This document shows positions 1 to 60,562 of a DNA stretch of 64,000 nt, in pieces; positions within the stretch are counted from its first letter, which is position 1, and each line of letters starts with the position of its first letter. The DNA comes from a virus. Where the stretch lies: positions 32,001-96,000 of IMG/VR virus record IMGVR_UViG_3300021962_000040; one strand, written 5' to 3'. Below the pieces are notes generated by a model. That model was not told the DNA's origin and did not search any database. It saw only the letters and a program-made list of their open reading frames with translations. A program made the position numbers and the translations under genes.

Positions 1-1
1 T

Positions 2-814
2 AACTTAGAAGAAAGAGCTAATCAAGTAAGAAGAGAAACTCCTAAACAATTTTTTGATGCATTACCTCAAGAACTTCAGATTGCAGCACGTTATGTAGCT
101 AACGGAGGAACTGATCTAAAAAGCCTTTTTGCAACTTTAGCACAAGCTGAAGAAACAAGAGACTTGGATATCAAAAGTGAGAGAGATCAGGAATTAATTA
201 TCCGTGATTATTTAAAAGCTACAGGCTACGGATCAACTGAAGAAATTGAAGAGGAAATTGAAATTTGGAAAGATCTTGGTAAACTAGAGGCACAAGCATC
301 TAAGTTCAAACCAAAATTGGATAAGATGCAAGAACAAGTTGTTGCAAGAAAACTTGAAGAACAAGAAATGAGAAGAAAGCAACAAGAGCAAGCATCTCAA
401 CAATATATGCAGAATGTGTATGAAACACTTAAAGATGGTACTGTAGGTGATGTTAAGATTGATAGAAAGACTCAGAATATGTTATATAACGGTCTTGTTC
501 AACCTAACTATCCTTCTGTAAGTGGAAGAAATACAAACTTACTTGGTCACTTGTTAGAGAAGTATCAGTTTGTAGAACCTAATTACACATTGATTTCTGA
601 AGCTCTGTGGCTGCTTTCTGATCCTGATGGATACAAAGCACGTATCATGGAAAAAGGTTCTCAGAAAGCTGTAGAATCTACAGTAAGAAAACTAAAAACT
701 GAACAAGCTAACAGTGGTGGAAGTTCTCTTGGTGTAGATAAGGTTGAAGAATCTGAAAGACCAATTAGTAAAAGAAAAATACAAAGACCTAATAATATTT
801 TTAAACGCTTTTAA
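2..814 (+). CDS. 5'-truncated acidic coiled-coil protein, putative capsid scaffolding protein (crAss gene-77-like position)
   Basis: Frame is open from base 2 (aac tta gaa gaa aga...), so the TTG at 164 in the ORF track is internal. Glu/Gln-rich and helical, with a basic C-terminus; lies directly upstream of the major capsid gene. Confidence 0.6.
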   Translation, partial: NLEERANQVRRETPKQFFDALPQELQIAARYVANGGTDLKSLFATLAQAEETRDLDIKSERDQELIIRDYLKATGYGSTEEIEEEIEIWKDLGKLEAQASKFKPKLDKMQEQVVARKLEEQEMRRKQQEQASQQYMQNVYETLKDGTVGDVKIDRKTQNMLYNGLVQPNYPSVSGRNTNLLGHLLEKYQFVEPNYTLISEALWLLSDPDGYKARIMEKGSQKAVESTVRKLKTEQANSGGSSLGVDKVEESERPISKRKIQRPNNIFKRF

Positions 815-854
815 CAACAACAATTAATAATTAACAACAAAAACACAATCAATT

Positions 855-2474
855 ATGGCAACTCCTGTTTTAAACAATGGAATTTTCCTGAGAGACACTA
901 GCTACAAAGCCAGTTCTCACGTAGATTCTTACCACTTAACTCAAATGTTAGGTAGTGCTGAACCCATGGATATGGGTCCAGTGGACTTATGGGCTATGAC
1001 TCAAAAAGTTGAAATGCCCCTTTATCAAATGGCTTCTTTTGGTGGTAAAAATACCATCATGGTTGACAATGCACGTGGAGAGTACAAGTGGCAAACGCCA
1101 ATTGCTCAAGACCTTCCTTTTGTAGTTGTGGATCTTGATCCTCAAAATGCAAGCAAAGGTATTGACGGTACTACTTTCACTATCAAATTGTCTAAGAGAT
1201 CATTTGGTCATGGTGATATCATCACTTATGACAAGTACAACGGTTTAGAATTGTACATTACAGCTTCTGATATCATCCCTGCTGGTGATGGTTTCATCTA
1301 CACTGTACAATTGGTGAACAACAACAACGCTGCAAGTCTTGATAACAAGTATCTTGCTCCTGGAACTAAGTTCTTCCGTAAAGGTTCTGCCCGTGGTGAG
1401 TACGGTGAAAGATTCTCTGACATTGAAACTGGTTCTGGTTTCCGTGAGTTCTACAACTACGTAGGTGGTGCTGAAGCTCACGTTCACTATTCTATTTCTA
1501 GCCGTGCTGACTTAATGATCAAAGGTGGTCTTAATGCTGACGGTACTGTACCTGTAACTGAAATCTGGAGAAACTTTAACCAGGATCAAACTAATCCTTC
1601 TGTTTCTTCTATTGAAGAGCTTGTAGCTTCTATGGGTAAAGCTGGTGCACGTGATGCTTTTGAAAGCGGTAAATTGTCACGCACATTTGTTACCAATATG
1701 GAAGCAGCTCACTTAACCAAAATTGCTAATGACATTGAGACTTACTTGATGTGGGGTAAAGGTGGTAGAATTAAGCAAGATGGTCCGGATGATATCAGAT
1801 TGTCTGTAGGTTTGTGGTCTCAATTGGATAACTCATTCAAGAGAGTATACAACAAATCTTCTTTCTCTCTTGATATGTTCAAGTCTGAGCTTTACAACTT
1901 CTACCAAGGTAAAGTTGAGTTCAAAGGTCCAGATCCACAACGTAAGCTTGTTGTACAAACTGGTATCGGTGGTATGCAGTTGATCAACAAAGCTATTGCT
2001 GATGAAGTATACGGATCTGGTTTAGTTCAAAATGCTTCTGAAATTGGTGCTGTTACCGGTAAAGGTATGGATCTTGATTTTGGATTTGCATACACTAGCT
2101 TCACTATTCCTTTCTTGGCTAACGTGAAGTTTGTATTGAACCCTGCATTTGATAACTTGCACACCAATGATATTGAGAATCCTTTGATTGATGGCCGTCC
2201 ATTAAGTTCTTACAGCTTTATTATCTTTGACGTTACTGATAACGGAAATGATAACATCTACTTGTTGAAACTTAACTGGGATAACCAATTGAAGTGGTTC
2301 TACCAAAACGGTACTATGGACTACATGGGACGTACTCAAGGGTTTGCATCTTCTGGTAACTTCAATGGATACCGTGTATACATGAGCCAGACTATGCCTG
2401 CCATCTGGGTAAAAGACCCAACTAAGGTTCTTAAGATTGTTATGAGAAACCCAGTTACTGGCGGATCATTCTAA
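855..2474 (+). CDS. Major capsid protein, crAss-like
   Basis: 539 aa with biased codon use (AAC, TTC, CGT, GGT) typical of a highly expressed gene. Followed by a strong terminator. Size and position match Crassvirales MCPs. Confidence 0.85.
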   Translation: MATPVLNNGIFLRDTSYKASSHVDSYHLTQMLGSAEPMDMGPVDLWAMTQKVEMPLYQMASFGGKNTIMVDNARGEYKWQTPIAQDLPFVVVDLDPQNASKGIDGTTFTIKLSKRSFGHGDIITYDKYNGLELYITASDIIPAGDGFIYTVQLVNNNNAASLDNKYLAPGTKFFRKGSARGEYGERFSDIETGSGFREFYNYVGGAEAHVHYSISSRADLMIKGGLNADGTVPVTEIWRNFNQDQTNPSVSSIEELVASMGKAGARDAFESGKLSRTFVTNMEAAHLTKIANDIETYLMWGKGGRIKQDGPDDIRLSVGLWSQLDNSFKRVYNKSSFSLDMFKSELYNFYQGKVEFKGPDPQRKLVVQTGIGGMQLINKAIADEVYGSGLVQNASEIGAVTGKGMDLDFGFAYTSFTIPFLANVKFVLNPAFDNLHTNDIENPLIDGRPLSSYSFIIFDVTDNGNDNIYLLKLNWDNQLKWFYQNGTMDYMGRTQGFASSGNFNGYRVYMSQTMPAIWVKDPTKVLKIVMRNPVTGGSF

Positions 2475-2490
2475 TCTAATTGATGAATTC

Positions 2491-2528
2491 AAAAAAGGGG
2501 GGATGGGTCAAACCTCCTCCCTTTTTTT
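2491..2528 (+). terminator. Intrinsic terminator after the major capsid gene
   Basis: AAAAAAGGGGGGATGGG-TCAAA-CCTCCTCCC-TTTTTTT: G/C-rich stem followed by a U-tract. Confidence 0.8.
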
Positions 2529-2555
2529 ATCTTAAATTAAACAAAAGAAAAAATT

Positions 2556-2810
2556 ATGTCAATTTATAAAAAAGCTCCGTTTGATCATGTTAGTGAGTTC
2601 TCTAACAAAACAACCAAAGAGTTATTTGCTACTCCAGAGTTTGATGCTTCAGTAGAAGCTTTGTTTGGAAATGCTGCATGCATTGCAGCTATAGAACAAG
2701 TTTTGGTAAGCAGAGCTTATGCAAATAATGCTGCCGCAATTACTGGTGGATTGGTTGCAGGTCAATTATACAACAACACAACTACTAAAGCAATTACTGT
2801 GGTAGTTTAA
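2556..2810 (+). CDS. Small virion protein, possible head fibre/decoration
   Basis: 84 aa; C-terminal YANNAAAITGGLVAGQLY resembles a motif at the ends of phage fibre/decoration proteins; adjacent to the MCP gene. Confidence 0.5.
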   Translation: MSIYKKAPFDHVSEFSNKTTKELFATPEFDASVEALFGNAACIAAIEQVLVSRAYANNAAAITGGLVAGQLYNNTTTKAITVVV

Positions 2811-2826
2811 AAACTCAAAAAACTTT

Positions 2827-2874
2827 TGCCGGGAAACCGGCATTAGATTATAAAAAATGTACATAATTATGTAC
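2827..2874. promoter_or_regulatory. GAAA-tetraloop hairpin plus perfect 16-bp palindrome
   Basis: TGCCGG-GAAA-CCGGCA at 2827-2842 and GTACATAATTATGTAC at 2859-2874, both intergenic. Confidence 0.45.
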
Positions 2875-2905
2875 TTTTGAGTTATAATTTAAAAACCAAA
2901 TAATT

Positions 2906-3922
2906 ATGAATGATTACACAATTGTAGAAAAGTATCAGCAAAACAAGAGCAGGACTATTGCTGTACGTCCATTCTTTGATCCCAACAAACAAAACATGGG
3001 ATTGGAAAACTATGGTATGTCCCTTTATGATGGGGTGTGGCATGAAGAATCTTTAGCATGTCTTGAACTCAATGGAGTCAAAAGATATGTAACTGGTTTG
3101 AATGAATTTGCACCAGAAGTAAAAAAACTTGCTCCTGGAGAAAGAGAGATTAAGATTAAAGAAATTAGAAGAGTTGTTTCACAACTTGAGGCTGAACTTG
3201 CAGCAAATGTTATTGACGTTGAAGATAAAGATTTCTGGAACAAAGTAACTTTATTAAAACCTGACAATGACAAATTCTGGTCAAGAATTAGTTTAAGATG
3301 TGGTAATGACCCTGTTTACTTAGATCCAGACACTGATCCTTATGATCTTATTAAACTTTACGCAATTAATGCTGGTGGTTTTAGCATTGTTGCTAAATCT
3401 TTGAAAGATGCTAAGAAATCTATCAACTCTCCTAAGTTCTACTTAGATCAGTTGCAAGAGACTGTAAATACTAGAACTGAGTTTACTAAACTTAGAAACA
3501 AAGCTATTTCTGAATTGGAAAAACTATTCACTAAAAACACAAATAAGCTTATGTATGTAGCTAAAGTTGTTGATGGTGATAGCACACAATATACTAAGTC
3601 CACTCCAAATGATATCTTGTATGAAAACATGGATATCTTTATTAACGGTGAGGGTACTGAATCTAACAAAACAAGAGCTGCAGAATCATTCATTGAAGCT
3701 GCCAATGCAACCATGGAAGATTTGAAAATCAGAGCATTGGTTAAAGATTGTATGTTCTACAGATTCATTATACCAAAATCAAATGGTTGGATTGAAACAT
3801 TAGATGGTCATGCTAGATTGGGTAAGAGACCTTCAGAAGTTGTTGAATTTTTGAAAGATCCTATCAATGAAGAAGTATTGACATCCCTATTAAGTAAAGT
3901 AGAACCATATTGGACAATTTAA
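2906..3922 (+). CDS. Conserved crAss-like capsid-module protein (gene-75-like position)
   Basis: 338-aa ORF with typical codon use; assignment by synteny only. Confidence 0.55.
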   Translation: MNDYTIVEKYQQNKSRTIAVRPFFDPNKQNMGLENYGMSLYDGVWHEESLACLELNGVKRYVTGLNEFAPEVKKLAPGEREIKIKEIRRVVSQLEAELAANVIDVEDKDFWNKVTLLKPDNDKFWSRISLRCGNDPVYLDPDTDPYDLIKLYAINAGGFSIVAKSLKDAKKSINSPKFYLDQLQETVNTRTEFTKLRNKAISELEKLFTKNTNKLMYVAKVVDGDSTQYTKSTPNDILYENMDIFINGEGTESNKTRAAESFIEAANATMEDLKIRALVKDCMFYRFIIPKSNGWIETLDGHARLGKRPSEVVEFLKDPINEEVLTSLLSKVEPYWTI

Positions 3923-3928
3923 TAAGTC

Positions 3929-4633
3929 ATGAATAATCAAATCCTTCGGTTAAAGTTAAAGCAAAGATTGAACAAGCTTTCTAGTAATGATTATGATAAT
4001 CTAGAAAACTGGCAAATCATTGAAGCATTCAATAAAGCTCAGGTAGAATGGGTTAGAAGAATGCTGCATGGCAATAATCTTTATAAAGAAGGAGATGAGC
4101 TTTCTAAGAGAAGGATTGATGACTTACAAATACTGTTAACAGAACTACCGTTAGTTGGTACTTCTAATGATCAGTATTTCCAAACAACAAATTTTCCACC
4201 GGCTAATTACTTAGAATACAAAAGAGTTAGTACAAATGCTGTTACAGAATGTTGTCCTGATCCCCGTTCAATGACAGTTTATTTAGGTGAGGTTGCTAAT
4301 GTAGACTTATACCTTAGAGATCCACTTAAGAGACCTGATTTTGAATGGGGTGAAACATTCCTTACAATGATTAATAATACAATCAGAATTTATTTAAGGG
4401 AATTTACTCTTGCTAATCCAGTGCTTACTTATTACAGACAACCCAGAGGAATTGAATTTACGGGTGTTTTAAATCCATATACTGGAATTATTTCTACAGC
4501 AGATGTTACCTCAGAATTTAAAGATGACATTGTAGAATTAATGCTAGATGATGCTGCCGCACTAATTGCTGGAGATATTGAAAACTTTAATCAAATGCAG
4601 AGAGAACAACAAGCTGCAGAAAGAAATAACTAA
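3929..4633 (+). CDS. Putative tail ring/head-tail connector protein (gene-74-like)
   Basis: 234 aa; N-terminal helical segment (LNKLSSNDYDNL...FNKAQ) and C-terminal LTYYRQP pattern resemble crAss ring proteins; synteny. Confidence 0.55.
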   Translation: MNNQILRLKLKQRLNKLSSNDYDNLENWQIIEAFNKAQVEWVRRMLHGNNLYKEGDELSKRRIDDLQILLTELPLVGTSNDQYFQTTNFPPANYLEYKRVSTNAVTECCPDPRSMTVYLGEVANVDLYLRDPLKRPDFEWGETFLTMINNTIRIYLREFTLANPVLTYYRQPRGIEFTGVLNPYTGIISTADVTSEFKDDIVELMLDDAAALIAGDIENFNQMQREQQAAERNN

Positions 4634-4635
4634 TT

Positions 4636-5127
4636 ATGGACTACACTAAAAGACCTTTAAAAAGAAAATCAGAGTCTGCTTCAGAAGAAGCAATGGAAAA
4701 ACCAATGTTGAAAAGAACAGCATCTGGCAGATCTCCTGAAATGCAGAAAGTAGATACTATGACTGGTAACTTAGTAGAGGAACTTATGAATGCTTCAACT
4801 AGTTTTCATAAGCTTCATTTGAAGGTTACTGGACCTGGATCTTTTGCTGCTCATAAAGCATTGAATGAATTATATGATGCTTTACCGGGATTAGCAGATT
4901 CTATAGCTGAAGGATATCAAGGTGCATGTGAAATGATTTTAAAATGCAGCGGAGAAGGACCAATGTATTTAGAATCTGTTGAAGATGCTGTTGAATACTT
5001 ACGTCAAATGAAAACACAAGTTGATGAATTGCAAGCTGTAATGCATCATACTGAGATTGTAAATTTGTTAGATACAGTCAAAGATGCAATTAACAGTGCA
5101 AAATACAAATTAATTTTCTTGGCATAA
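4636..5127 (+). CDS. Dps/ferritin-like four-helix-bundle protein
   Basis: FHKLHLKVTGPGSFAAHKALNELY...ADSIAE matches the Dps pattern HWxVxGxxFxxxHxxxEExY...DxxAE; basic N-terminal extension. Confidence 0.75.
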   Translation: MDYTKRPLKRKSESASEEAMEKPMLKRTASGRSPEMQKVDTMTGNLVEELMNASTSFHKLHLKVTGPGSFAAHKALNELYDALPGLADSIAEGYQGACEMILKCSGEGPMYLESVEDAVEYLRQMKTQVDELQAVMHHTEIVNLLDTVKDAINSAKYKLIFLA

Positions 5128-5140
5128 GTTGTAAATTGTA

Positions 5141-5178
5141 AAACTTTTTGTATATTATATATGTGCACGGTGCACATA
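5141..5178 (+). promoter_or_regulatory. Putative phage late promoter motif with adjacent inverted repeat
   Basis: AAACTTTTTGTATATTATA (identical to 17211-17229), immediately followed by TATGTGCAC-G-GTGCACATA (5160-5178). Confidence 0.55.
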
Positions 5179-5210
5179 ATATTTATTTGTAAACTTAAAA
5201 CTGAAAAAAA

Positions 5211-6449
5211 ATGGCTTATTTTAATCATGCGTTTGGCAAAGCATTTGTTGTAGATGGTTTTGCTGCTGCAGGAGTCAAGACTTCTGCTTTCACACCTGGT
5301 TTGTTTGAAGTTGTAAACAGCTCATGGGCTTCTGTAGAAGCTTCTGCAGGTAACAACATCACAGCAGGTCAATTATTTTACCTTGTACAAGGTAGCTTTC
5401 AAACTGAAGACAACATTGGTAACAACCCAGGTCACGGGGGTTACAAAGAGTCTGTAAAATCTAAAGGCATTAATGCTAGATTTATCAGCAGATTATGGTC
5501 TTCTGAGTGTCAATCTTCTACAGCTGCAACTGTAAAAATTTGTGTAGGTTCTACTTGTGCTCCTTGTGGATCTAACCTTTTCTTACGTTTAGATGTTAAA
5601 GGTTCTCCTGCTTTACGTTTCTTGAACCACAATGCTTATGCAATTGGTGATAGTTCAGGAAGTGCTTATCAAAACAATGTACCTGGTAACTGCTGTGCAT
5701 TGGATCAAACTTACCTTGACCCTGCTGTTGCTTTAGCTAAAGCTGCTGCTATGTTGTTGGAAGATCCAATCATCAAGCCTTTTGCTAAGGAAAAAACTGG
5801 CGGTGGAATGCAAGTAACTGTAGGTGCTACTACAACTACTTACACTATTGCTCAAGTATTAGGTTTAGCTCCTTCTGGAAACTATACTCCTTCTGTTGAT
5901 CCTGTTGCTGATCAAGTATCTGCTTGTGTATCTTTCCAAGGTGCTTATGTAGACACTAAATTTGGTAGCTGCTCATTTGATACACGTGATCATTATGAGA
6001 AAGAGCCAGTACAATTGATCGGTTCAGTATTGAATGAGACTGGTGATCCTTGTAATGACTGTGGTGTTGTAACTACTACTCCTGGTACCATGCAACAAAC
6101 TTCTGGTGAAACTGTATTGAGAGATGTATTGTTAACTGAGGCTTACAGACAATCTCCTTACAACCAAGGAAATCCTGATTCTGCACGTATCCGTCAAATT
6201 GAAGGATCTGACAAAATCTTGTCTGCTATTGACCGTGAGGCTTTGTACAAAACGTACTACATCCAACATAGCATTCCAAGATTGAACAATCCTTCTGGAA
6301 CGTTTGATAATGATCAATATGTTTATACCATCTATGTTAAGTGTACTGCTACTGCATTGATCACTAAAATGGATACGTTGATGGCTAAAATTGTTCAAGT
6401 GGCTGGTGCTTCTGGTAATCCAATCACTTTTGAATCAAATATTGACTAA
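5211..6449 (+). CDS. Abundant structural protein, probable auxiliary capsid protein (gene-73-like position)
   Basis: 412 aa, highly biased codons, own promoter motif and own terminator; synteny. Confidence 0.55.
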   Translation: MAYFNHAFGKAFVVDGFAAAGVKTSAFTPGLFEVVNSSWASVEASAGNNITAGQLFYLVQGSFQTEDNIGNNPGHGGYKESVKSKGINARFISRLWSSECQSSTAATVKICVGSTCAPCGSNLFLRLDVKGSPALRFLNHNAYAIGDSSGSAYQNNVPGNCCALDQTYLDPAVALAKAAAMLLEDPIIKPFAKEKTGGGMQVTVGATTTTYTIAQVLGLAPSGNYTPSVDPVADQVSACVSFQGAYVDTKFGSCSFDTRDHYEKEPVQLIGSVLNETGDPCNDCGVVTTTPGTMQQTSGETVLRDVLLTEAYRQSPYNQGNPDSARIRQIEGSDKILSAIDREALYKTYYIQHSIPRLNNPSGTFDNDQYVYTIYVKCTATALITKMDTLMAKIVQVAGASGNPITFESNID

Positions 6450-6466
6450 TCACTATAGATCAATAT

Positions 6467-6505
6467 AAAAGAAGGTGGGGTAGAAATATCCCACCTTTCT
6501 TTTTT
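6467..6505 (+). terminator. Intrinsic terminator
   Basis: AAAAGAAGGTGGGG-TAGAAATA-TCCCACCTTTCTTTTTT. Confidence 0.8.
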
Positions 6506-6516
6506 ATCTATATTTT

Positions 6517-6534
6517 TTTTAGTATATTATGTAT
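6517..6534 (+). promoter_or_regulatory. Variant of the late promoter motif
   Basis: TTTTAGTATATTATGTAT, just after the terminator and before ORF 6564. Confidence 0.45.
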
Positions 6535-6563
6535 ATAGAATGCATTAAGTAAACTCAATCCTT

Positions 6564-7118
6564 ATGGCCAGTAAGCATATTTTAAGTCTAGAAGTTCCAA
6601 CTGTATCAAATTGTGAGATTTTATCCATACGGGATACCAGTGAATATTCTGAATTAATTCCTATTGATTGTCCGGAATTGCTCATTACTGTTCCAGGATT
6701 CAATTCATCTGTTATTGTTAAAACAACTCCAGAATTTTTTGTAAATTTAAATGGATGTGATTTGGCATTACAGAAAACAGATTGTAATGAGAGTAGAATT
6801 GGTCTTCCTGATGGTGTATATGTCATCAAGTATAGCGTTGCACCAAATGATAAAGTTTATGTAGAGTACAATCATTTAAGAATTACTAATATCTTAAATG
6901 CTTATTATAAAGTATTGTGTTGCATTGACTTAGAAAATTGTGAACCTTTTAGTGAAAAAAAGGAACTTATTGAAGAAATGCAATACATTAGAACTTTAAT
7001 TGATGGAGCAGTTGCTAAAGTAGAATACTGTAGTAGCCCATCATTAGGTATGGATATGTATAACTATGCATTGAAAAGACTTGACAAAATTCTGTGCAAA
7101 AGTTGCGGATGTAATTAA
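6564..7118 (+). CDS. Putative tail fibre hub/docking protein
   Basis: 184 aa with LPDGVYVIKY motif and Cys-rich C-terminus (CKSCGCN); first gene of the fibre cluster. Confidence 0.45.
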   Translation: MASKHILSLEVPTVSNCEILSIRDTSEYSELIPIDCPELLITVPGFNSSVIVKTTPEFFVNLNGCDLALQKTDCNESRIGLPDGVYVIKYSVAPNDKVYVEYNHLRITNILNAYYKVLCCIDLENCEPFSEKKELIEEMQYIRTLIDGAVAKVEYCSSPSLGMDMYNYALKRLDKILCKSCGCN

Positions 7119-7141
7119 TAATTTTTAAAACCAATAAATAT

Positions 7142-7306
7142 ATGAATTGCAAACAATGTAACAAAGGATTTAGCTGCGGGTGTCAAAAAACAACAGCCCC
7201 AGATGGATCAGTAGTCCACAAAACTTGTTTAACGGATTACATTAACAGTAAAAAATTAAATAACACAAGTACACCAACAGTACAACCTACTATAAATACA
7301 AACTAA
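7142..7306 (+). CDS. 54-aa Cys/His-rich mini-protein (absent from the ORF track)
   Basis: MNCKQCNKGFSCGCQKTTAPDGSVVHKTCLTDYINSKKLNNTSTPTVQPTINTN*; fills the 7118-7314 gap, with an A-rich leader containing AAAACCAA. Confidence 0.65.
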   Translation: MNCKQCNKGFSCGCQKTTAPDGSVVHKTCLTDYINSKKLNNTSTPTVQPTINTN

Positions 7307-7313
7307 GTACATA

Positions 7314-7880: not shown

Positions 7881-7910
7881 AACAAAAAATAACAATTAAA
7901 ACAATCAATT

Positions 7911-10139: not shown

Positions 10140-10144
10140 ATCAG

Positions 10145-10152
10145 TAAATTTG
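10145..10152 (+). promoter_or_regulatory. Bacteroidota-type -7 promoter element
   Basis: Intergenic TAAATTTG matches the TAnnTTTG consensus. Confidence 0.35.
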
Positions 10153-10172
10153 TAATTATATAGAAATCAACT

Positions 10173-15970: not shown

Positions 15971-15980
15971 AAAATAAATT

Positions 15981-51300: not shown

Positions 51301-54300
51301 TGCTGAGTACTCTACCTATAGAAAGAAGTTTGGTCATGAACCATATGCAGCTGCAATCAACAATGATATTCTTGATTACAAGTTTGCATTGATGGGTAAT
51401 GATAATGTTACAGAAAGAAAGCCTTTGTTCTTAGATAAGAATGGAAATACTACAACTGTAAATACAGGTAAGCCAGCTCTAGATGAGAATGGTAAACAAA
51501 AGACAGCTGTTCCAATTTCTTATGAAGCTGCAGATATGGAAGTATTAAAAGATCTTTGGGATGAACTAAAGACAGAACTTCCTGAATGGGCCGCATTATC
51601 TGAAGAAGAAGGTATTGATGTAGATAACCTTTATGGTAAGCTTAGAATGTTTGCTAATAACAAAGAAGGATCTAGATCAATTGGTGCTGTAGTATTACCT
51701 AACTTGTATTTGAACTTACTTCAAGAGTATGATGTCAAAATAGAAAGCATAAAAATTGCTGGTGAAGAAGTTATGCCTCAAATTAAATTTGGAGGTCTTA
51801 CATTCAGCAGCTTTAAAAATACATATGAGTTATATGAGAATGGAAGTCAAGGTCAAAGAACTCAATATATCTTATCTGCTTTAATTACTGCAGCAACGGA
51901 TAATGCCAAAGAAAGATTGTTGGCTAAGCTTGGTCTTAATATTAATGCCCTTTCTGTTGTAGCAAACTTAGTAGCTTTGGGTGTTCCAGTTAAGACTGGT
52001 GTACTTCTTATCAACCACCCTGTAATTAGGCAGGCTTACTTTGAAGAGACTAACTCACCTGAAGATGAGCCAGTTACAGCGGCAAATATAATCAGAGATA
52101 GAATTGCATTATTACAATCAAGTTTCTTAGAGACTGAGGAACGTGGTAAGAGAACTTCTGTTACTCAAAATGCTTTGATGCAATCTATTGAGGCTCCATT
52201 AATTAAACCTACAGCAACTGCTGAGGATATGGCTAACCTTAGAGAAAGCGGTGAAGTTGATAAGATAGATATCATTGAAGAAATTTCTATTCTAGAACAG
52301 TTCTTAAATGCTGCTAACTTATCTAACACTACAAGATACATGGGTGATCTATTAAATCTTACTAATGGATTAGGTCAAGGTCTTGAAGCAATTGATAAAA
52401 GAAATGCTGCAGTTGAAAAGCTGGGACTTAATCTTTCTAACAAAGACTACGCTGCATTAGGTGTTGATAAACCTATGATTGATGCTAGACCTATCTTTAA
52501 AGGTAATACATGGCAAGCAGGATATCTTGAAAGATTTGAAGAGTTCACCAATAACTTATTACCTAAAGTTGTTCTTTCAGCAAGCCCTCTATTCAGAAGA
52601 GTTACTGATGAGATTGTATATCAAAGTACAATCAACAGCTTACCTTATGAGTTAAGAGATAGAGCTAAAACTAAAGTGGCAAAAGACTTTTTATCTTACT
52701 TAACTATTAAAGCTTACATGCATAATGGTATGGTAAATAATTCTCAGTCAGTTGCTACCTTAACAAATGGATTAATTTATAATCAAGAAGGTGTTGAGAA
52801 TATCACTAAGGTTGTAGATAGATTACGTTCAATAGAAGACAATAAAAATAACTACTTCTTGAATTCCTTTATTATTGCTGAGAAAGCAAGTCTTAAAGGT
52901 AACAAGACAGGTTTGAACTTGGCTAGTGCAAATACATTCCTGAGATACAATGATTCTCAAAAGCTTGATATCCAAAATGGATTCATGACTTTATTTGCTA
53001 ATCCATTGACTAGAGAAGATGCAAGAACATTGGTTAACTATATGATGGTTAAAGATGGTCTTCAGTATGGTTATAAATCACTAGTAGAAGCGGTTGCTCC
53101 AATTGCTCTTGACAATTACTTATCACATATTGATACAGTACAAGCTGCAATGGAAAGAACTGATGACGCAATATTTAAATCTACCTTTGGTGTTACCTTA
53201 GATGATTTGGTAATTCAATTCATGCAAGGCTATTTAACATCAGCTGCAAATGCTTATGTTATCAAAAGAGTTAAGGCTGCAATATATGCACCTGAAACTA
53301 AAGGTATCTTGGTTGAACCAAAAGTATACACAAAGAATCTTGCTGCTGCAAATCCAGAAGCTATCTATGTATTTGGTGATAACGTTGCAAAGCAAGGTAG
53401 TGTAGGAAATAGTTCTGTTAGAGGTTTAGAAAATGCCTTTGGTTTATTCTTTAAGAAAGATCTAAATAGAACTGAGTCTTCTTACTATACAAATGCTGAA
53501 GCTGGTGACTTCATCACAATATTTGATGAGCAAGTAGAGCAATTAACAAATATGATTGCTGAAGGAAAACAAGTTATTTTCCCTAAAGACTTCATTACAA
53601 CTCCTGAACTTGCAGACTTTAAAAAGAATAGCCCGGCTGTATTTGAATATGTAAAGGCTAAGCTTAAGCAAGATCTTAACTATAACATTGATCCTAAAGC
53701 AAAACTTACTGCAGAAGAGAAGAAAGAAAAAAGAGTTGCAGATCCTGCAATACTTAGAGCTCCTGTACATGTTAATGCTTCAGGCTTGGTACCTAGATTG
53801 GTTGTAGACTTGTATGCTGGAATCACTAAAGTAGAGAGAAATGAAGCTGTATCAGCAATTAGAAATACTCCAGCTGGTTCAAAGCTTACTAAACAATTGG
53901 CAGATACATTCTCAAGAAATAAGAAGGCTTTAAGAAAAGCAGGTTTTAGAAATCTTATCAACTTGAAAAAAGGTTCTGACTATCATACTGAAGTTGAATT
54001 TCCAATGGTAATCAGACAGAATGTTGGATCAGACTATAAAGCTGAATACAAATACTACATCCTTACTAAAACTCAAAGCTTGTTCCCTAAAGCTAATCTG
54101 ATTAACTTTAATAACAAAGCTGTTGGTAGTTATGCTGAATATGTAGAGGTAGATATCAAAGGATCAACTTCACAGAATCCAATTGGATTTATGTTTGGTG
54201 AAAGACCTACAACTAAAGAATTAAGAAACTTTGTTAATAGTGTTAACTCAAATGATCCTTTTGATGCAAACTTTGATTCAATTGATCTTGATGCTGCACT

Positions 54301-54775: not shown

Positions 54776-54778
54776 TAT

Positions 54779-57700
54779 ATGGCATGTTTTAACAGAAATA
54801 CCCAAGAATATAAAGACCTATTAGGTGCTTTCACTAGCAACATGCAGGTTGATGGGATAATTACAGCTTGGCAAAACGTAAATAATACAGAAGCTTTTCC
54901 TTCAGTTGCTCAAGCTAACCAGTTTTTAAAAGATAAAAAAGTTGCTTTTAGTCTGCAGCAAAGAAATTTTGCTGAAGCAGTTTTAGGTAATCTTAGTAGA
55001 AAGGGTTTGATTAGCAAGTATAATAACTCATACTATGTTAATAACTCAAATAGATCTACCAGAGCCTATGACGCTACAGTATTGAAGAGTAACTTAGATA
55101 AAGTAAAAAGATATCTTGATATTAATAACATTCCTTTAGATGCGGTAACGTTTGATACAACTGCAAAGTCTGTTAGAATATCAGTTAATGAGAGCATCTT
55201 TACTCCTAAAGATATGCTTGAATCAACAAGAGGTTGGGATAGAACTAGAAGTAGACACGTTGTTGTCCACTTAATGAGAATGTTTCCTAATATCAAAGTT
55301 GCTTTAGTAAGTGTAAGTAAAGCTCAAAAATATTATGATAGTCTACCTGCTTCTCAAAAAGCAACTATGCCTTTTGAAAATGTAAGATCTTACTTTGATC
55401 CAGTAGCAAACCAAGTAGTTTTAATTGAGGGTAGAGTTACAGATGAAACTGCAATTGAGGAAATGCTCCATCCTTTTACGGATGCTTTGTATGTAGATAA
55501 TGGAGCTCTATTCAATTCTCTTTTGAATGAAGCAAAAGCAATGTTCCCTGTTTTAAATCAACAGATAGAAGATGCATACTCTGATAAAAGAGGGTTTAAT
55601 CAAAAGCATAGAGACCTTGAACTTGTTACCCAGGCTTTGACAAGACACTTTAAAAAAGAGTATGAGGAAAATCCAACCAAGACTTTCTTAGAAAGAATCA
55701 AAGACTTCTTTAAATGGTTTGCAAGTATTGTAAACAACTTGCATAAGTATGTTACAGGAATTAATTTGAATGGTTTCAAAAGAGACAGCTCCTATTATAT
55801 GGGAGATACTGCTCTTATGGAACAGGAAGAAGGTGTTGAGGAAGAAGAGATTATTGCTCCTATAAGAGAAGGTATTATTACAATTGATACCAAAGATATT
55901 AAACCAACAACCACATTGTCTGACATTGCCAGATTATTAAATACATCTGGAATTCAGTTTAATGCAACAGCAAGAGCTGATGCAAAAATTAGATACTCTC
56001 TAACACCTGAGTTACAAACAACAGTTGATTATGCATTAAGACAATCTAATGCAATTCAAGCTGAGGTAGTTAAAAGATTATTCCATCAAGCTCAAGCTAC
56101 AAAAGAAGAAGTTGGTTCTATGGCTGCCGGTATGGAAGGTCCTATTGTTGTACTCAATGAGGAGAACCATGTGTACTATAACTTATTAGACACAACAGAA
56201 ACATTTAAGTCTACTACAGAAAGAATCAAAGGAAAACTTTCTGAAGAAGATATGTTTAATAAGAAACTGAACATTGATCTTGGTAATGACTTTGATAAAT
56301 TACTTCAAGGTTTGAGTTCAGATAAATCACTGGATGAAGTATTTTCTCAAATGAATATTCTCAATAGAGAACAAGCTGAGAAAGCTTATCTTCAGTTACA
56401 AGAAAATCTTAGAGAAATAACTAGAGGTGGTGGTGTTGCCATTCCTCAAGTAGTTGTTTATGATCAAAAGTCACAGACTGCCGGTTCAATTGATATTTTA
56501 GTTGTACTGCCTGATGGCAAACTTAGAATTGTGGATCTTAAGACAAGTAAGAACTCTGTTAGAGATATGGTCTTGAGTGAACAAGCTAAAGCTAAAGCTG
56601 GGTTACAAGGCAAGTCTAGATATGATCAAGAATACAAACTAGGAGATGACAGTGATTTAAAAAGAGCTGGTATTGAAAGTCTATCTACAAGAGCCCAACA
56701 AGGTATTCAAGTTAACATCTATAGAAGGATGCTTGAAAACATGGGTTATGAAGTTGATATGAGTGACATGGGAGCTTCTACTTTCCATGTTCAAGTTGGT
56801 ATTAAAGGAAAAGATGCTCAGCAAGAATTTACAGGTGAATTTAGATCTGATGAGTGGGTTTCACATCCTGCAAGTCAGAATGCATTGTATGTAGATTTAT
56901 TAGTACCTAAGAATGTAGATGCTATTTCTTTAGAGGATCTAGAGAAAAGTATTGATAGTGCATTGGATAATCCTGTCAATTGGGATTCTGAATTAACAGA
57001 CTCTGAAAAGATACCTGAAGATACTGAGTTCACAGATCCATATGTAGAGTATGAAGTAATTACCCAGGCCCTGGAGAATTACAGAATGGCACTTACTACC
57101 AAGCTAAAAGCTATGGAGCAAATTAAAAGTGCTATCTACATGGATAGAACTAGAGAGCAGACTGAAGAGAATATCTTAAATGCTTTGTCTGCAATCAGTA
57201 TGGCAATGGCTGAAGGTCCTAAAGCAAGAGCTGCTTTATTTACAGAACTTCTTAGAGATGCCTTTAAACAGATTAAGAACTTTACAGACTACGTAAATAA
57301 TGTAGACAACTTTGATAAGCCTGAGTATATTACTTATGTTCTTAACTTCAATAGATTCATTAAAACATTTGAAGGATTATACTCAGTAAAAGATCTAGAG
57401 GGTATCAATGCTACTCAAAAATCTTTAATCTTACAGTTACAGACTCAATTGAATAACTTGGGTGTTAGTAACTCAAAACAAGAAGGTCTTATCAATGAGG
57501 CTATTACAAATTATGTAAAAGCACAAATTAAAAACTGGTCTACCAGAGATGACCTTACGGAAGATGTACTCAATGACTTGATGAAACATGCAAGAGATAT
57601 TGACTACATGGAACTTGGTACAGGTGATCTTGCTACTTCTAGAGATACCATTCTTGCTGTTATGGATAAGATCTATAAAACTAAAAAGCAAGAGTTGTTA

Positions 57701-60562
57701 GACAATGTTGAAACAAGAAACAGAACAATTGCCGGGTTAGCATCAAGACTTCAGAAGTTATCTCCTAATAAAAATACTCAAGAGATGTATGACTTCATGC
57801 TTGAGTTTGATGATAATGGTGAGTTTACAGGTAGATATGTTCAAAGACTTGGAAGACAATACTTTCAAAAGCAACAACAACTCAGAGACAAACTTTATGA
57901 TGAAAATGGAAATGCTTTAGAGTATAGAGATATTGATGATGCAAGTACTGCAAGACCTGAAGATCTAGAATTCAACGTTAAGCTTGCAAAAGCTAAAGCT
58001 GATTATGCTGCTTTCTGGGCAGCTGAAAGAGTAGGTTTAGATGATAAACTTATGGATGGTGATTTCCATAAGTATACTGATGAGTTCAAAACAGAAAGAG
58101 CTAAGTTCCAATACTACGTACCTGTAAATGGTAAAGCTGTATGGAGAAGAAAAGCCGGTGTATCAGATAGAGCTTATCAAGTTTACTTGGCCAAATACTT
58201 TAATGAGGTTGAGTATACTTATGCAAAGAAAGATCAGAATGGTAATTACACTGGAGCAATTGTAAGAGAGTCTGTTTTCCAAGCTGTGAAGCCTCAGTAC
58301 AGAATGGCTAATGATTACAATCTACGTACTGGTGAGAGAATGGTTAGCGATAAGTATGAGAAGATTATGAATCCTACTGATGCTCTAGGGCAGACTCAAA
58401 AGGAATTCTATCTTGCTTATCAGGAAATGTATGAGAATCAATTACTTAGCAAATTACCTATGGGATATAGATCTCAGATGTTAGGTAATGTGCCTGTTGT
58501 AAAAGGTAAGTTGTTTCAAGATGTAAAAGCTAAACCAAATATTGTTGGTAAGCTTTGGTCTAAAGCTACAAGAAGTGTTAATAATCTTATATCAGAAACT
58601 GCAGAACAAAGAGGTATTGTACTTGATGAGGATGGTAACTTGGTTGATCAGCTTCCTATCTTCTATACAGGAAGAGCTAGAACTGATGAAGAACTTGCAG
58701 CAATTAATGCTGAGATAAACTCATTAGAGGAAAGAAGAAAGAAAGGTTTGGTTACAAGAGATTCTTATGATAATCAAATGCCTATTCTTAAAGGAAGACT
58801 TGCAACAATTCAGGGAAGACCCTCTAAAGGAGAAATAAATAAAGACATGGGCACAGCTCTTATGAGATTCAGTGCTATGGCGGAACACTATGAAACAATG
58901 TCTTCAGTTGAAGACACTTTCAAAGCATTCATTAAAGTTCTTGAACAACGTTCTTATCAACCTGCAGATCCTTCAGTTACTTTAGGTAAGTGGGCAAAAG
59001 GTAAATTCATACCTAAAGGAAAGAAAGGTGGAGCTCAAAGTAATGTTGTAACTAGAGCAAAGAAATGGATGTCAATGGTGTTCTATGATAATGATAGAAT
59101 TACAAAAGGTTTCCTTGAAAAGGTTACGGATGGATTGATGGAATACTCATCTTTATCATATGTTGCCTTTAACCCATTTGGTAACTTTAACAACTATGCA
59201 TTAGGTAGAATTAACAACTCTATTGAAGCATTGGGTCAAAGATTCTTCTCAGGAAAAGCATATGCCAGAGCTGAGTTTGAATTTAACAAAAGAGCTTTAC
59301 CGGATCTTGTAACAAGACTTGGGTCTGTTGCTAAGAAACCCTTTAATAAAGCAGACTATGATCCAGAAGAAGCTTCTAGTAAGTATGAAGCTTTAGTTGA
59401 TCTATACAGAATGATGGACTCTCAAGCTGAAGTAAGAGAAACTCAATTTGGTCCAGAGCCAATTTCTAAATCTTGGTTTAGAAAAGCAGCAGACTTTGGT
59501 TATGTATTACAAGATGCAGCGGAATACAATGTTCAGACTAAGATTGGTGTAGCCATTCTTATGGATACCTTAGTTATGAATAAAGCTACAGGTGATATGA
59601 TATCTTTGTATGATGCCTATGAGTTTGATTCAGAGACAAAGCAAGCAAAACTAAAAGATGGTTATGATACTATTGTGACCCTTGATAGAAAGAATGTTGA
59701 TGAAGATGGCAAACCTAAAGTAATTAAGGAGAAGAAGTTTACAGATGACTTTAGATATGAACTTAGAAATAAGATCCGTGAGGTAAACAAACAGATCCAT
59801 GGTAACTATGCTAAAGATGACAGAATGGTTATTCAATCATATGCTGTTGGTAGACTTGCTGCACAGTTCCATAAGTGGGTTGCACCTGCAATCAAAGCAA
59901 GATTCCGCAGAGAATACTTTGATGAGAACTTGGGTTGGATGGAAGGTAGATACAGAGCCTTCTGGAAATTCTTAGCATTTAGTACTAAGAAGCTTGCTAG
60001 TTTTCAGTTTGAGTATGGTAAACATACTGAGCAGTTCTTGGAAGAATATGGATACACCGGAGATGGTTCTCAAAGAGATCAAAGAGCCAGAGATAAACTA
60101 TTCAGCACTTATAGAGTATTAGGTGAAATTGGAATCATCATGGTAACAGTTGCTCTTAATGGTATTCTTGCTGCAATGTTTGGTGATGATGATGATGAAA
60201 CAGATCATGAAAAGAGAATGGAAAACTTCTTGAGATATCAGGCTGATAGAACTTATAAAGAACTTATTCTATTTACACCTCTAGGTGCACAGCAGATCTA
60301 TCAAATGTTTAAGTCTCCTATTGCATCTACAAGAACTCTTGGAGAATTTGGTGAGGCTTTATCATTATCTGTAATGACACCGCTTGCATATGTGGTTGAA
60401 GGTAAAGATGATTTTTATGCTGATTCAGATTATGTATACCAGAGAGGTACAAGAAAAGGTGAGCTTAAGCTTTATAAAAACTGGGCTGATGTTGTACCAG
60501 TAATCTATTCTATTAAGAAGTATCAAGAATTCCTTAACCTGACTAACTTCTATATTAAGTAA
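54779..60562 (+). CDS. Large virion cargo protein with PD-(D/E)xK nuclease domain and degenerate zincin
   Basis: 1927 aa; AGSIDILVVLPDGKLRIVDLKT...QVNIY (RecB-like); EEMLH at 55457-55471; hydrophobic segment near the C-terminus. Confidence 0.7.
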   Translation: MACFNRNTQEYKDLLGAFTSNMQVDGIITAWQNVNNTEAFPSVAQANQFLKDKKVAFSLQQRNFAEAVLGNLSRKGLISKYNNSYYVNNSNRSTRAYDATVLKSNLDKVKRYLDINNIPLDAVTFDTTAKSVRISVNESIFTPKDMLESTRGWDRTRSRHVVVHLMRMFPNIKVALVSVSKAQKYYDSLPASQKATMPFENVRSYFDPVANQVVLIEGRVTDETAIEEMLHPFTDALYVDNGALFNSLLNEAKAMFPVLNQQIEDAYSDKRGFNQKHRDLELVTQALTRHFKKEYEENPTKTFLERIKDFFKWFASIVNNLHKYVTGINLNGFKRDSSYYMGDTALMEQEEGVEEEEIIAPIREGIITIDTKDIKPTTTLSDIARLLNTSGIQFNATARADAKIRYSLTPELQTTVDYALRQSNAIQAEVVKRLFHQAQATKEEVGSMAAGMEGPIVVLNEENHVYYNLLDTTETFKSTTERIKGKLSEEDMFNKKLNIDLGNDFDKLLQGLSSDKSLDEVFSQMNILNREQAEKAYLQLQENLREITRGGGVAIPQVVVYDQKSQTAGSIDILVVLPDGKLRIVDLKTSKNSVRDMVLSEQAKAKAGLQGKSRYDQEYKLGDDSDLKRAGIESLSTRAQQGIQVNIYRRMLENMGYEVDMSDMGASTFHVQVGIKGKDAQQEFTGEFRSDEWVSHPASQNALYVDLLVPKNVDAISLEDLEKSIDSALDNPVNWDSELTDSEKIPEDTEFTDPYVEYEVITQALENYRMALTTKLKAMEQIKSAIYMDRTREQTEENILNALSAISMAMAEGPKARAALFTELLRDAFKQIKNFTDYVNNVDNFDKPEYITYVLNFNRFIKTFEGLYSVKDLEGINATQKSLILQLQTQLNNLGVSNSKQEGLINEAITNYVKAQIKNWSTRDDLTEDVLNDLMKHARDIDYMELGTGDLATSRDTILAVMDKIYKTKKQELLDNVETRNRTIAGLASRLQKLSPNKNTQEMYDFMLEFDDNGEFTGRYVQRLGRQYFQKQQQLRDKLYDENGNALEYRDIDDASTARPEDLEFNVKLAKAKADYAAFWAAERVGLDDKLMDGDFHKYTDEFKTERAKFQYYVPVNGKAVWRRKAGVSDRAYQVYLAKYFNEVEYTYAKKDQNGNYTGAIVRESVFQAVKPQYRMANDYNLRTGERMVSDKYEKIMNPTDALGQTQKEFYLAYQEMYENQLLSKLPMGYRSQMLGNVPVVKGKLFQDVKAKPNIVGKLWSKATRSVNNLISETAEQRGIVLDEDGNLVDQLPIFYTGRARTDEELAAINAEINSLEERRKKGLVTRDSYDNQMPILKGRLATIQGRPSKGEINKDMGTALMRFSAMAEHYETMSSVEDTFKAFIKVLEQRSYQPADPSVTLGKWAKGKFIPKGKKGGAQSNVVTRAKKWMSMVFYDNDRITKGFLEKVTDGLMEYSSLSYVAFNPFGNFNNYALGRINNSIEALGQRFFSGKAYARAEFEFNKRALPDLVTRLGSVAKKPFNKADYDPEEASSKYEALVDLYRMMDSQAEVRETQFGPEPISKSWFRKAADFGYVLQDAAEYNVQTKIGVAILMDTLVMNKATGDMISLYDAYEFDSETKQAKLKDGYDTIVTLDRKNVDEDGKPKVIKEKKFTDDFRYELRNKIREVNKQIHGNYAKDDRMVIQSYAVGRLAAQFHKWVAPAIKARFRREYFDENLGWMEGRYRAFWKFLAFSTKKLASFQFEYGKHTEQFLEEYGYTGDGSQRDQRARDKLFSTYRVLGEIGIIMVTVALNGILAAMFGDDDDETDHEKRMENFLRYQADRTYKELILFTPLGAQQIYQMFKSPIASTRTLGEFGEALSLSVMTPLAYVVEGKDDFYADSDYVYQRGTRKGELKLYKNWADVVPVIYSIKKYQEFLNLTNFYIK

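What the first reader, a model, noticed from the sequence alone, without database searches (positions are those of the whole stretch)
1..60562. Strong, strand-symmetric avoidance of TCG/CGA (also GCGC and CGCG) while other CG contexts are common
Seen: in a manual tally of 1-2820 I counted about 39 CG dinucleotides; one was preceded by T and none followed by A. In a less careful read of the whole + strand module I spotted only about 20 TCG/CGA, mostly as TCGG/CCGA, and no TCGA, GCGC or CGCG, whereas CCGG, ACGT and ACGG/CCGT are frequent. TCG and CGA are reverse complements. The loss also covers codon junctions (AAC/GAC/TTC/ATC followed by GAN) in very Asp/Glu-rich proteins, so rare-codon bias alone does not explain it. 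Inference: selection against a very short DNA target. Candidates are a host defence recognising about 3 bp, a stack of 4-cutters, context-specific m5C decay, or self-avoidance of a phage nuclease that attacks host DNA (e.g. the PD-(D/E)xK domain at about 56.5 kb).
Basis: partly seen in the sequence, partly recalled or inferred. Interest (0 to 1): 0.72.

Follow-up and report, generated by a model that had tools for sequence, protein, structure and literature searches.

The report
Phage genome purged of TCG/CGA words
An aquatic bacteriophage and its relatives have removed almost every TCG/CGA word from their DNA, more strictly on one strand than the other, which looks like evasion of an unidentified DNA-cutting defence that reads an unusually short word.

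Summary
The tallies are right. Window 1-60562 has 372 CG but only 6 TCG and 13 CGA, against 104 and 129 expected, and no TCGA, GCGC or CGCG. The window lies in a 117.8-kb phage genome with CG O/E 0.22.

Codon use does not explain it. A synonymous-codon shuffle expects 424 TCG and 523 CGA; 32 and 26 are found. CCG, CGG and ACGT are not depleted. The loss holds in all three frames and in intergenic DNA.

Among 13 closely related genome pairs, synonymous T-to-C changes that would create TCG/CGA are about 15 times rarer per site than controls. Existing sites are lost only 1.4 times faster. This indicates purifying selection, not m5C-type hypermutation.

The avoidance is not fully strand-symmetric. 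With the capsid gene on top, top-strand CGA:TCG is 43:22 here and 40:9 to 71:8 in 7 of 9 relatives, whatever the gene orientation. No other 3- to 5-mer behaves this way.

No DNA methyltransferase was found. Sampled cellular genomes and five other phages lack the pattern, and relaxed lineages are scattered on the capsid tree.

Best reading: avoidance of host restriction-like defence, partly dependent on site orientation. The host and the agent are unknown.

The parts
1..60562 (+). The + strand structural module named in the finding. It holds 372 CG (O/E 0.20), 6 TCG, 13 CGA, and 0 TCGA, GCGC or CGCG.
1..64000 (.). The whole window, which is G000:C1:32001-96000 of a 117,753-bp phage record. It holds 413 CG (O/E 0.21), 6 TCG and 21 CGA.
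1966..35970 (+). The six residual + strand TCG sites, at 1966, 3946, 6019, 17357, 28448 and 35968. All six are TCGG.
7931..63995 (+). The 21 residual + strand CGA sites. Eight of them lie in 60811-63993.
855..2474 (+). Major capsid protein gene. It was used to find relatives and to orient all genomes, so 'top strand' means the sense strand of this gene.
56471..56563 (+). Weak PD-(D/E)xK match inside the 1927-aa ORF 54779-60562. The D...DLK...QxxxY motifs are conserved in 9 of 10 related genomes.
61034..62659 (-). Ribonucleotide reductase large subunit gene. It holds 5 of the genome's 65 residual TCG/CGA sites and has a higher CG O/E (0.38), so it is less purged than the rest.
7911..16781 (+). 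Tail-fibre-like genes, equal to G000 39911-48781. They have no homologue in the relaxed sister genome G011, which hints at a different host.

Best explanation
The pattern is the product of purifying selection on the DNA itself. In this phage lineage almost any mutation that creates 5'-TCG-3' on either strand is removed. Removal is most complete for TCGA, which has TCG on both strands, and for TCG on the capsid-gene sense ('top') strand.

Shown: the effect is at DNA level, gains are suppressed, there is a genome-wide strand polarity, the trait is evolutionarily labile, and the phage has no recognised DNA methyltransferase.

Inferred: the selective agent is one or more host nuclease-based defences that act on unmethylated incoming DNA. 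One layer is ordinary avoidance of palindromic sites: TCGA nearly everywhere, GCGC only in some lineages. A second layer targets the asymmetric core CGA/TCG. Its strength depends on site orientation or strand. This resembles Type III, Type ISP and MANTIS systems, where inverted site pairs are the dangerous ones and phages escape by purging one orientation.

The host and the enzyme are unknown. A 3-4 nt asymmetric target would be shorter than any described for those systems.
For: Not codon use. The codon shuffle expects 424 TCG and 523 CGA against 32 and 26 found, while CCG, CGG and ACGT are undepleted. All three frames are affected. Intergenic DNA has 2 TCG and 5 CGA against 21 ACG, 15 CGT, 24 CCG and 29 CGG.

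Selection, not hypermutation. In 13 pairs at 93.6-99.6% identity, T/C differences per T site are 0.0070 in TCG/CGA-creating contexts (5840 TT, 50 CC, 41 differing). The non-CpG control is 0.1088 and tolerated CpG contexts give 0.0906. Loss per C site is 0.58 against 0.41 in controls. TCGA-creating sites show 1 difference in 1328 T sites. TCR codons give 0.0087 against 0.0795. Controls with the same flanks but no CpG are normal: NTY|HNN 0.0986 and NNY|AAN 0.1127.

Polarity. Top-strand CGA:TCG is 43:22, 148:106, 50:5, 64:4, 70:4, 40:9, 61:11, 71:8 and 32:5 in 9 of 10 near-complete genomes, and 29:37 in one. Pooled over 7 genomes it is 225:41 in top-strand genes and 139:14 in bottom-strand genes, and this is the only 3-mer of its kind. 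Among 96 capsid-oriented loci, CGA exceeds TCG in 64, TCG exceeds CGA in 21, and 11 are equal. All 6 significant cases favour CGA.

No C5, N6/N4 or D12 methyltransferase was found in 0 of 5 genomes searched.

Not a cellular signature. Nine cellular regions of MAGs that had binned these phages have TCG/CGA O/E 0.60-1.25. Thirty Bacteroidota loci have a TCG+CGA share of 0.146-0.446 against 0.04 here. Five other phages give 0.59-1.09.

Labile trait. Relaxed lineages are scattered on the capsid tree. The relaxed sister G011 differs from G000 in its tail-fibre genes.

Precedents, read as passages. T7 carries all 36 EcoP15I sites in one orientation (PMC3874151). MANTIS prefers inverted sites in a graded way, and phages show strand-biased depletion of its sites (bioRxiv 10.64898/2026.09.23.753747).
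Against: No host and no enzyme have been identified. In the passages I read, the Type III, ISP and MANTIS/BREX sites given are 6-7 bp, and from recall Type III sites are 5-6 bp, not 3-4.

Under a strict Type III model the retained orientation should return to expectation. Here top-strand CGA is still depleted (O/E given CG: ACGA 0.52, CCGA 0.34, GCGA 0.11). Its gain rate is still about 8-10 times below control.

A single selection coefficient does not fit both the 15-fold gain suppression and the 1.4-fold loss increase. A mixture of strongly selected and tolerated sites has to be assumed.

One relative (G010c153) is strongly CG-poor but shows no polarity, 29:37.

The flux test assumes that the T-to-C mutation rate is not itself suppressed in these contexts.
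Confidence: 0.5

Rival explanations
1. A process tied to replication or packaging polarity acts on single-stranded DNA. One strand, for example the strand displaced in unidirectional or rolling-circle replication, is exposed more often. A host or phage ssDNA nuclease, or a replisome component that reads TCG, then selects against TCG mainly on that strand.
For: The polarity runs through the whole genome with no switch point and does not depend on gene orientation. Both strands are depleted but to different degrees, as graded exposure would predict. Four-fold sites show a top-strand G>C component of +0.06 to +0.14 in 7 of 10 genomes. It is negative in the one genome without polarity. One contig is permuted relative to the others, which fits a circular or concatemeric form.
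Against: The four-fold skew is confounded with gene class, because structural and replication genes lie on opposite strands. No ssDNA nuclease specific for TCG is known to me. The replication mode and the genome ends were not determined, because the runs found hold contigs only.
Confidence: 0.17
2. The phage avoids the target of its own nuclease or nickase, which attacks host DNA or nicks phage DNA on one strand. Candidates are the PD-(D/E)xK domain of the 1927-aa protein or another phage nuclease.
For: The phage has several nuclease-like genes. These are a weak PDDEXK_1 match at window 56471-56563, a PDDEXK_1 protein at G000 114471-115469 and a RusA-like protein. No methyltransferase is present to protect its own DNA. 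TCGA, which puts the site on both strands, is the most strictly avoided word.
Against: The 56.5-kb domain has D...DLK...QxxxY motifs (read by eye). From recall these are typical of RecB/Cas4/lambda-exonuclease-type nucleases, which are not sequence-specific. The domain is 91% identical in G011, which tolerates 106 TCG, 148 CGA and 15 TCGA. No gene's presence tracks the trait across 10 genomes. Residual opposite-strand sites show no local exclusion zone: 22 lie within 100 bp against 15.7 expected. The trait is lost repeatedly in close relatives.
Confidence: 0.12
3. The pattern comes from context-specific hypermutation. Candidates are deamination of methylated CpG, a TC-specific deaminase, or a T[C>T]G error bias of the phage's family-B DNA polymerase.
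For: TG and CA are over-represented (O/E 1.30 and 1.20). Tolerated CpG contexts lose C about 1.7 times faster than controls. The phage polymerase is family B, and its only solved-structure match is to Pol epsilon at E about 2e-4. From recall, exonuclease-deficient Pol epsilon has a strand-asymmetric TCG-to-TTG signature.
Against: Hypermutation predicts a normal gain rate and almost no sites shared between relatives. Observed: gain is 15 times below control, and 50 sites are conserved against 41 differing. Phages with the closest isolate polymerases (35% and 32.5% identity) have TCG/CGA O/E 0.89-1.05. Relaxed and purged lineages are interleaved on the tree. TCA, TCT and TCC are not depleted.
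Confidence: 0.07
4. The cause is translational or RNA-level selection (rare codons TCG and CGA, codon-pair bias, an RNase site), or a general physical property of DNA such as bendability for packaging.
For: TCG (6 of 2462 Ser codons) and CGA (5 of 1361 Arg codons) are the rarest codons of their families. CpG depletion has been linked to DNA bendability in bacteria (PMC11282364, abstract and passages).
Against: Out-of-frame and intergenic sites are equally depleted. In top-strand genes the sense strand tolerates CGA and avoids TCG. In bottom-strand genes it is the reverse (225:41 against 14:139 in sense terms). ACGT and TCGA have the same composition but occur 163 and 0 times. Which contexts are retained differs between lineages.
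Confidence: 0.03

Closest known systems
Avoidance of palindromic Type II restriction sites in phage genomes
   Same: TCGA is absent in 8 of 10 genomes and GCGC in 3 of 10, against shuffle expectations of 160 and 35 in G000. The phage has no methyltransferase, and the set of avoided palindromes differs between lineages. Other marine phages show the same kind of gaps: HTVC008M has 0 TCGA in 50 kb and phi4:1 has 1 CCGG.
   Different: Most of the effect is on a non-palindromic 3-nt core. TCGG, TCGT and TCGC are also purged, and the avoidance is strand-polar. Neither follows from palindromic sites.
Type III restriction 'strand bias' (phage T7 has all 36 EcoP15I sites in one orientation)
   Same: An asymmetric word is kept almost only in one orientation along the whole genome, independent of gene direction (PMC3874151 passages).
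   Different: The core is 3-4 nt. The only Type III site I read is EcoP15I, and the 5-6 bp range is recalled. The kept orientation is also depleted and still under selection. No enzyme is known.
MANTIS (Gao_RL), a BREX-related defence with hemimethylated asymmetric sites
   Same: It has a graded orientation preference. Single or direct sites are still restricted and inverted pairs more so. That predicts depletion on both strands with a bias, as seen here (bioRxiv 10.64898/2026.09.23.753747 passages).
   Different: MANTIS reads 6-bp sites and was studied in Pseudomonas. Nothing links it to this phage's unknown host.
CpG depletion through cytosine methylation and deamination (vertebrates; Mycoplasma penetrans with M.MpeI)
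   Same: CG O/E is very low (0.22) and TG/CA are in excess. M.MpeI is cited in PMC11282364 (passages).
   Different: The flux test shows suppressed gain rather than fast loss. CCG, CGG and ACGT are not depleted beyond codon use.

Membership tests
Type IIP restriction-site avoidance | Short palindromes occur far below expectation under composition- and codon-aware nulls | tested here: met
   TCGA 0 against 160 and GCGC 0 against 35 in the codon shuffle. GCGC 0 against 14 under a maximal-order Markov model. CCGG and ACGT are not avoided in G000.
Type IIP restriction-site avoidance | The avoided set varies between related phages, as expected if it depends on the host | tested here: met
   GCGC is 0 in G000, G012 and G014 but 6-17 in six others. 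CCGG or ACGT are avoided in some loci, for example L073, L080 and L095.
Type IIP restriction-site avoidance | The avoided word is a palindrome, so avoidance is strand-symmetric | tested here: not met
   The core is TCG/CGA, and top-strand CGA:TCG reaches 70:4.
Orientation-dependent restriction avoidance (Type III / ISP / MANTIS-like strand bias) | An asymmetric word is kept in one orientation genome-wide, independent of gene orientation | tested here: met
   225:41 in top-strand genes and 139:14 in bottom-strand genes, pooled over 7 genomes. It is the only such 3-mer. There is no switch point.
Orientation-dependent restriction avoidance (Type III / ISP / MANTIS-like strand bias) | The retained orientation is at neutral expectation (strict two-site rule) | tested here: not met
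   ACGA O/E is 0.52, CCGA 0.34 and GCGA 0.11. The gain rate for top-strand CGA is 0.011-0.014 against 0.10 in controls. This fits a graded rule like that of MANTIS, not a strict Type III rule.
Orientation-dependent restriction avoidance (Type III / ISP / MANTIS-like strand bias) | A recognition site of 5-7 bp and a cognate hemimethylating enzyme in the host | not testable with these tools
   No consensus extends beyond 4 nt around residual sites. The host is unknown, and the MAG bins are inconsistent with one another.
Methylation/deamination-driven CpG decay | C-to-T loss at the depleted context is much faster than at other C sites, while gain is normal | tested here: not met
   Loss is 0.58 against 0.41 per C site. 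Gain is 0.0070 against 0.1088 per T site.
Codon-usage or codon-pair bias | The effect is confined to coding frames or to the sense strand | tested here: not met
   All frames and intergenic DNA are affected. The sense-strand preference reverses between top-strand and bottom-strand genes.
Host-like genomic signature | The same depletion appears in cellular genomes that are candidate hosts | tested here: inconclusive
   It was not seen in 9 cellular regions of MAGs or in 30 Bacteroidota loci. The true host is unknown and the samples are small.

The most novel reading that the evidence does not exclude
Aquatic bacteria that host this widespread phage group carry a defence, or the phages have an intrinsic process, that reads a word of only three nucleotides (TCG) and senses which strand or orientation it lies on along the whole genome. 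That would be an ultra-short-motif, polarity-sensing form of restriction not covered by the Type I-IV, BREX or MANTIS systems as I know them. It would be strong enough to drive a 117-kb genome to about 5% of the expected sites.
Probability: 0.25. Interest if true: 0.85.

Novelty: new variant of a known kind. Interest (0 to 1): 0.68.

Why it matters
Motif avoidance is one of the few marks that unknown defence systems leave in uncultured phage genomes. Here the mark is unusually strong and short, and it is polar.

The phage group is common. At least 599 IMG/VR contigs encode its capsid protein. Near-identical DNA occurs in 20 runs from 17 studies of marine, estuarine and freshwater samples; two of these runs are flagged as possible sources of this DNA.

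If a defence reading a 3-4 nt asymmetric word exists, it would widen the known range of restriction specificities. It would also explain part of the extreme CpG poverty of some low-GC phages.

The flux test used here separates selection from mutation bias without needing a host, so it can be reused on other phage groups.

Tried and rejected
Host identification failed. The capsid scan of genome contigs found 16 loci in MAGs labelled Clostridium, Campylobacteraceae, Pseudomonadales, Gammaproteobacteria, Rickettsiales, Fluviibacter, Micavibrio, Bacteroidia, Bacteroidales, Bacilli, Chitinophagaceae and an unclassified bacterium. The labels are mutually inconsistent, and the cellular regions of 9 of these MAGs lack the pattern. 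I take them as mis-binned phage contigs, not as hosts.

Polymerase family as the cause: phages with the nearest isolate polymerases show no depletion.

A gene that tracks the trait: none was found among 10 genomes. The genes unique to G011 are homing endonucleases, a DnaA-like HTH protein, a glucosaminidase and an MGS-like protein, with no methyltransferase.

Local 'opposing nicks' model: residual top-strand TCG sites are not excluded from the neighbourhood of CGA sites. Twenty-two lie within 100 bp against 15.7 expected, out of 190 scored sites among the 193 in 51 purged sequences. A first pooled version of the test was dominated by unpurged relatives and is uninformative.

Four-fold-site skews as a replication marker are confounded by gene class.

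Genome ends and packaging direction: the 24 runs listed are held as contigs only.

Pfam found nothing in the 1927-aa protein at E <= 0.01. Only a 16.3-bit PDDEXK_1 match appeared when the protein was searched in segments.

Literature: searches found no report of TCG/CGA-specific or polar depletion in phages. Wang et al. 2004 (J Mol Evol), which may discuss CpG flanking contexts in bacteria, is not held.

Full report
WHAT THE WINDOW IS. The window is bases 32001-96000 of a 117,753-bp IMG/VR virus record that is rated complete. Simple ORF calling under the standard code gives 128 ORFs covering 94% of the genome. The genome encodes:
- a capsid protein distantly related to those of Leptolyngbya phage Lbo-JY46 (28% identity), crAss-like phages and Cellulophaga phages phi4:1 and phi17:2;
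- a terminase, a portal protein and a family-B-like DNA polymerase;
- a primase, a DnaB-type helicase, a uracil-DNA glycosylase, ThyX, a dNMP kinase and ribonucleotide reductase;
- a peptidoglycan amidase, which points to a bacterial host.

The capsid gene has at least 599 relatives in IMG/VR. Near-identical DNA is held by 20 runs from 17 studies labelled marine, estuary, freshwater or lake. Two of these runs may be the source of this DNA.

THE OBSERVATION.
- The window has 413 CG (O/E 0.21). TCG is 6 against 117.7 expected and CGA 21 against 142.4, while CCG and CGG are 2.4-2.5 times above the first-order Markov expectation.
- TCGA, GCGC and CGCG are absent. CCGG occurs 67 times and ACGT 80 times.
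- The whole genome behaves the same way: CG O/E 0.22, TCG 22, CGA 43, ACG 367, CCG 293.
- The junction claim holds. NNC|GAN is 19 against 515, NTC|GNN 15 against 357.5, NNT|CGN 11 against 86.5 and NCG|ANN 2 against 63.4.
- With amino-acid sequence and per-gene codon use held fixed, 200 shuffles expect 424 TCG and 523 CGA. The genome has 32 and 26. CCG, CGG and ACGT sit at expectation and CCGG is enriched.

So beyond codon choice this is not a general CpG deficit. It is a deficit of CG flanked by 5' T or G, or by 3' A or C, and it is extreme for T and A.

Intergenic DNA (6,596 bp) shows the same pattern: 2 TCG and 5 CGA against 21 ACG, 15 CGT, 24 CCG and 29 CGG.

RELATIVES AND NON-RELATIVES. 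In 80 IMG/VR loci around the capsid gene, CG O/E ranges from 0.12 to 0.58 (median 0.24). The share of CG flanks that are TCG or CGA ranges from 0 to 0.28 (median 0.056).

TCGA is nearly always absent. GCGC, CCGG and ACGT are avoided only in some lineages.

On a capsid tree of 96 sequences the deep branches (64-85% identity) show no TCG/CGA-specific loss. Within the purged crown clade, relaxed lineages are scattered.

The pattern is absent from everything else I sampled:
- cellular regions of 9 MAGs that had binned these phages (TCG/CGA O/E 0.60-1.25);
- 30 Bacteroidota ribosomal-protein loci;
- Cellulophaga phages phi4:1 and phi14:2, Leptolyngbya phage Lbo-JY46, Pelagibacter phage HTVC008M and a Vibrio phage.

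The true host is not known.

A NEW FEATURE: POLARITY. I oriented the ten near-complete genomes so that the capsid gene lies on the top strand. Top-strand CGA:TCG is then:
- 43:22 in this genome (G000);
- 148:106 in G011, the relaxed sister;
- 50:5 in G012, 64:4 in G014, 70:4 in G013, 40:9 in G003:C2, 61:11 in G005:C2, 71:8 in G015 and 32:5 in G016;
- 29:37 in G010:C153, a more distant freshwater relative.

The bias has the same absolute direction in genes on either strand. Pooled over 7 genomes it is 225:41 in top-strand genes and 139:14 in bottom-strand genes. GC and AT skews, by contrast, flip with gene direction.

An unbiased scan of all 3- to 6-mers finds this behaviour only for CGA/TCG and for longer words that contain it.

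There is no switch point along the genome and no consensus beyond four bases.

Given the number of CG, the pooled O/E values are 0.52 for ACGA against 0.07 for TCGT, 0.34 for CCGA against 0.13 for TCGG, and 0.11 for GCGA against 0.01 for TCGC. TCGA has no copies. Pairs without T or A flanks are symmetric.

The same codon arrangement, an Arg CGT codon after a T-ending codon, is used in bottom-strand genes and avoided in top-strand genes. This rules out translation as the cause.

SELECTION OR MUTATION. I compared 13 pairs of relatives at 93.6-99.6% identity, looking at third-codon positions where C/T is always synonymous.
- Non-CpG controls differ at 0.1088 per T site and 0.41 per C site.
- Contexts where C would make TCG or CGA differ at 0.0070 per T site and 0.58 per C site (5840 TT, 50 CC, 41 differing).
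- Tolerated CpG contexts differ at 0.0906 and 0.69.
- Sites that would create TCGA show 1 difference in 1328 T sites.
- TCA/TCG codons and NCR|A junctions behave in the same way.
- Controls with the same flanks but no CpG are normal.

A hypermutable site would show normal gain and almost no conservation between relatives. The data show the opposite. I therefore read the pattern as purifying selection against new sites, with a small class of tolerated sites.

The mild 1.4-1.7-fold faster loss at all CpG may reflect a weak general CpG effect.

WHAT THE AGENT MIGHT BE. No C5, N6/N4 or D12 methyltransferase is present in this genome or in four near-complete relatives. Avoiding target sites is therefore a plausible escape route from restriction.

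TCGA and the lineage-specific loss of GCGC look like classical palindrome avoidance.

The polar CGA/TCG layer resembles the strand bias that Type III enzymes impose. T7 carries all 36 EcoP15I sites in one orientation (PMC3874151). It also resembles the graded orientation preference reported for MANTIS (bioRxiv 10.64898/2026.09.23.753747).

The fit is imperfect. The core is only 3-4 nt, and the retained orientation is still selected against.

A polarity set by replication or packaging, with a factor that reads single-stranded DNA, is a serious rival. The data here cannot separate the two.

Self-avoidance of the PD-(D/E)xK domain near 56.5 kb is unlikely. The Pfam match is below threshold. The motifs, read by eye, are of a kind I recall from RecB/Cas4 nucleases. 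The domain is 91% identical in the relaxed sister G011.

G011 differs from this genome in its tail-fibre genes, which suggests a different host.

VERDICT. It results from selection on DNA, not from codon use or CpG decay. It is best filed as an unusual variant of restriction-site avoidance, and the agent remains unidentified.

Noticed in passing
window 23740-29868, 39305-54775, 54779-60562 (+): Three giant ORFs of 2042, 5156 and 1927 aa lie at the end of the structural module. Pfam finds nothing above threshold in the 1927-aa one. They may be virion cargo or RNA-polymerase-like proteins as in crAss-like phages, but that was not tested.
   Followed up: partly
L122 (Pelagibacter phage HTVC008M 1-50000); L120 (Cellulophaga phage phi4:1); L124 (phi14:2): Other marine phages have their own palindrome gaps. 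HTVC008M has 0 TCGA although it has 111 TCG and 245 CGA. phi4:1 has 1 CCGG and 0 CGCG. phi14:2 has 0 CCGG and 0 CGCG.
   Followed up: no
G000, G011, G012, G014 whole genomes: CATG and CTAG are also under-represented in all four genomes. In G000, CATG is 350 against 493 and CTAG 244 against 313 under a maximal-order Markov model.
   Followed up: no
L086-L101 (genome contigs): Contigs of this phage group sit inside MAGs labelled with about a dozen unrelated taxa. The composition of each MAG's own ribosomal region differs from that of the phage contig, so this looks like mis-binning.
   Followed up: partly
G003:C2 (L149-L154): The capsid gene is split across the two ends of this 114,697-bp contig. 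The assembly is therefore circularly permuted relative to G000, which fits a circular map or a terminally redundant genome.
   Followed up: no
L082:13561-13644 and 14074-14148 (G000, outside the window): Two phage tRNA genes, Leu(TAA) and Arg(TCT), serve A/T-ending codons. The genome contains no TCGA at all, so neither tRNA gene contains that word.
   Followed up: no
L125:17314-17928 and L126:2235-3068 (G011): The relaxed sister genome carries GIY-YIG and LAGLIDADG homing-endonuclease-like genes that G000 lacks.
   Followed up: no
L083:1-10000 (G000 18001-28000): At least 56% of the sampled 31-mers of this stretch are held by 20 runs from 17 studies labelled marine, estuary, freshwater or lake water. 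Two of the runs may be the source sample. This is an unusually wide range of habitats for one genotype.
   Followed up: no
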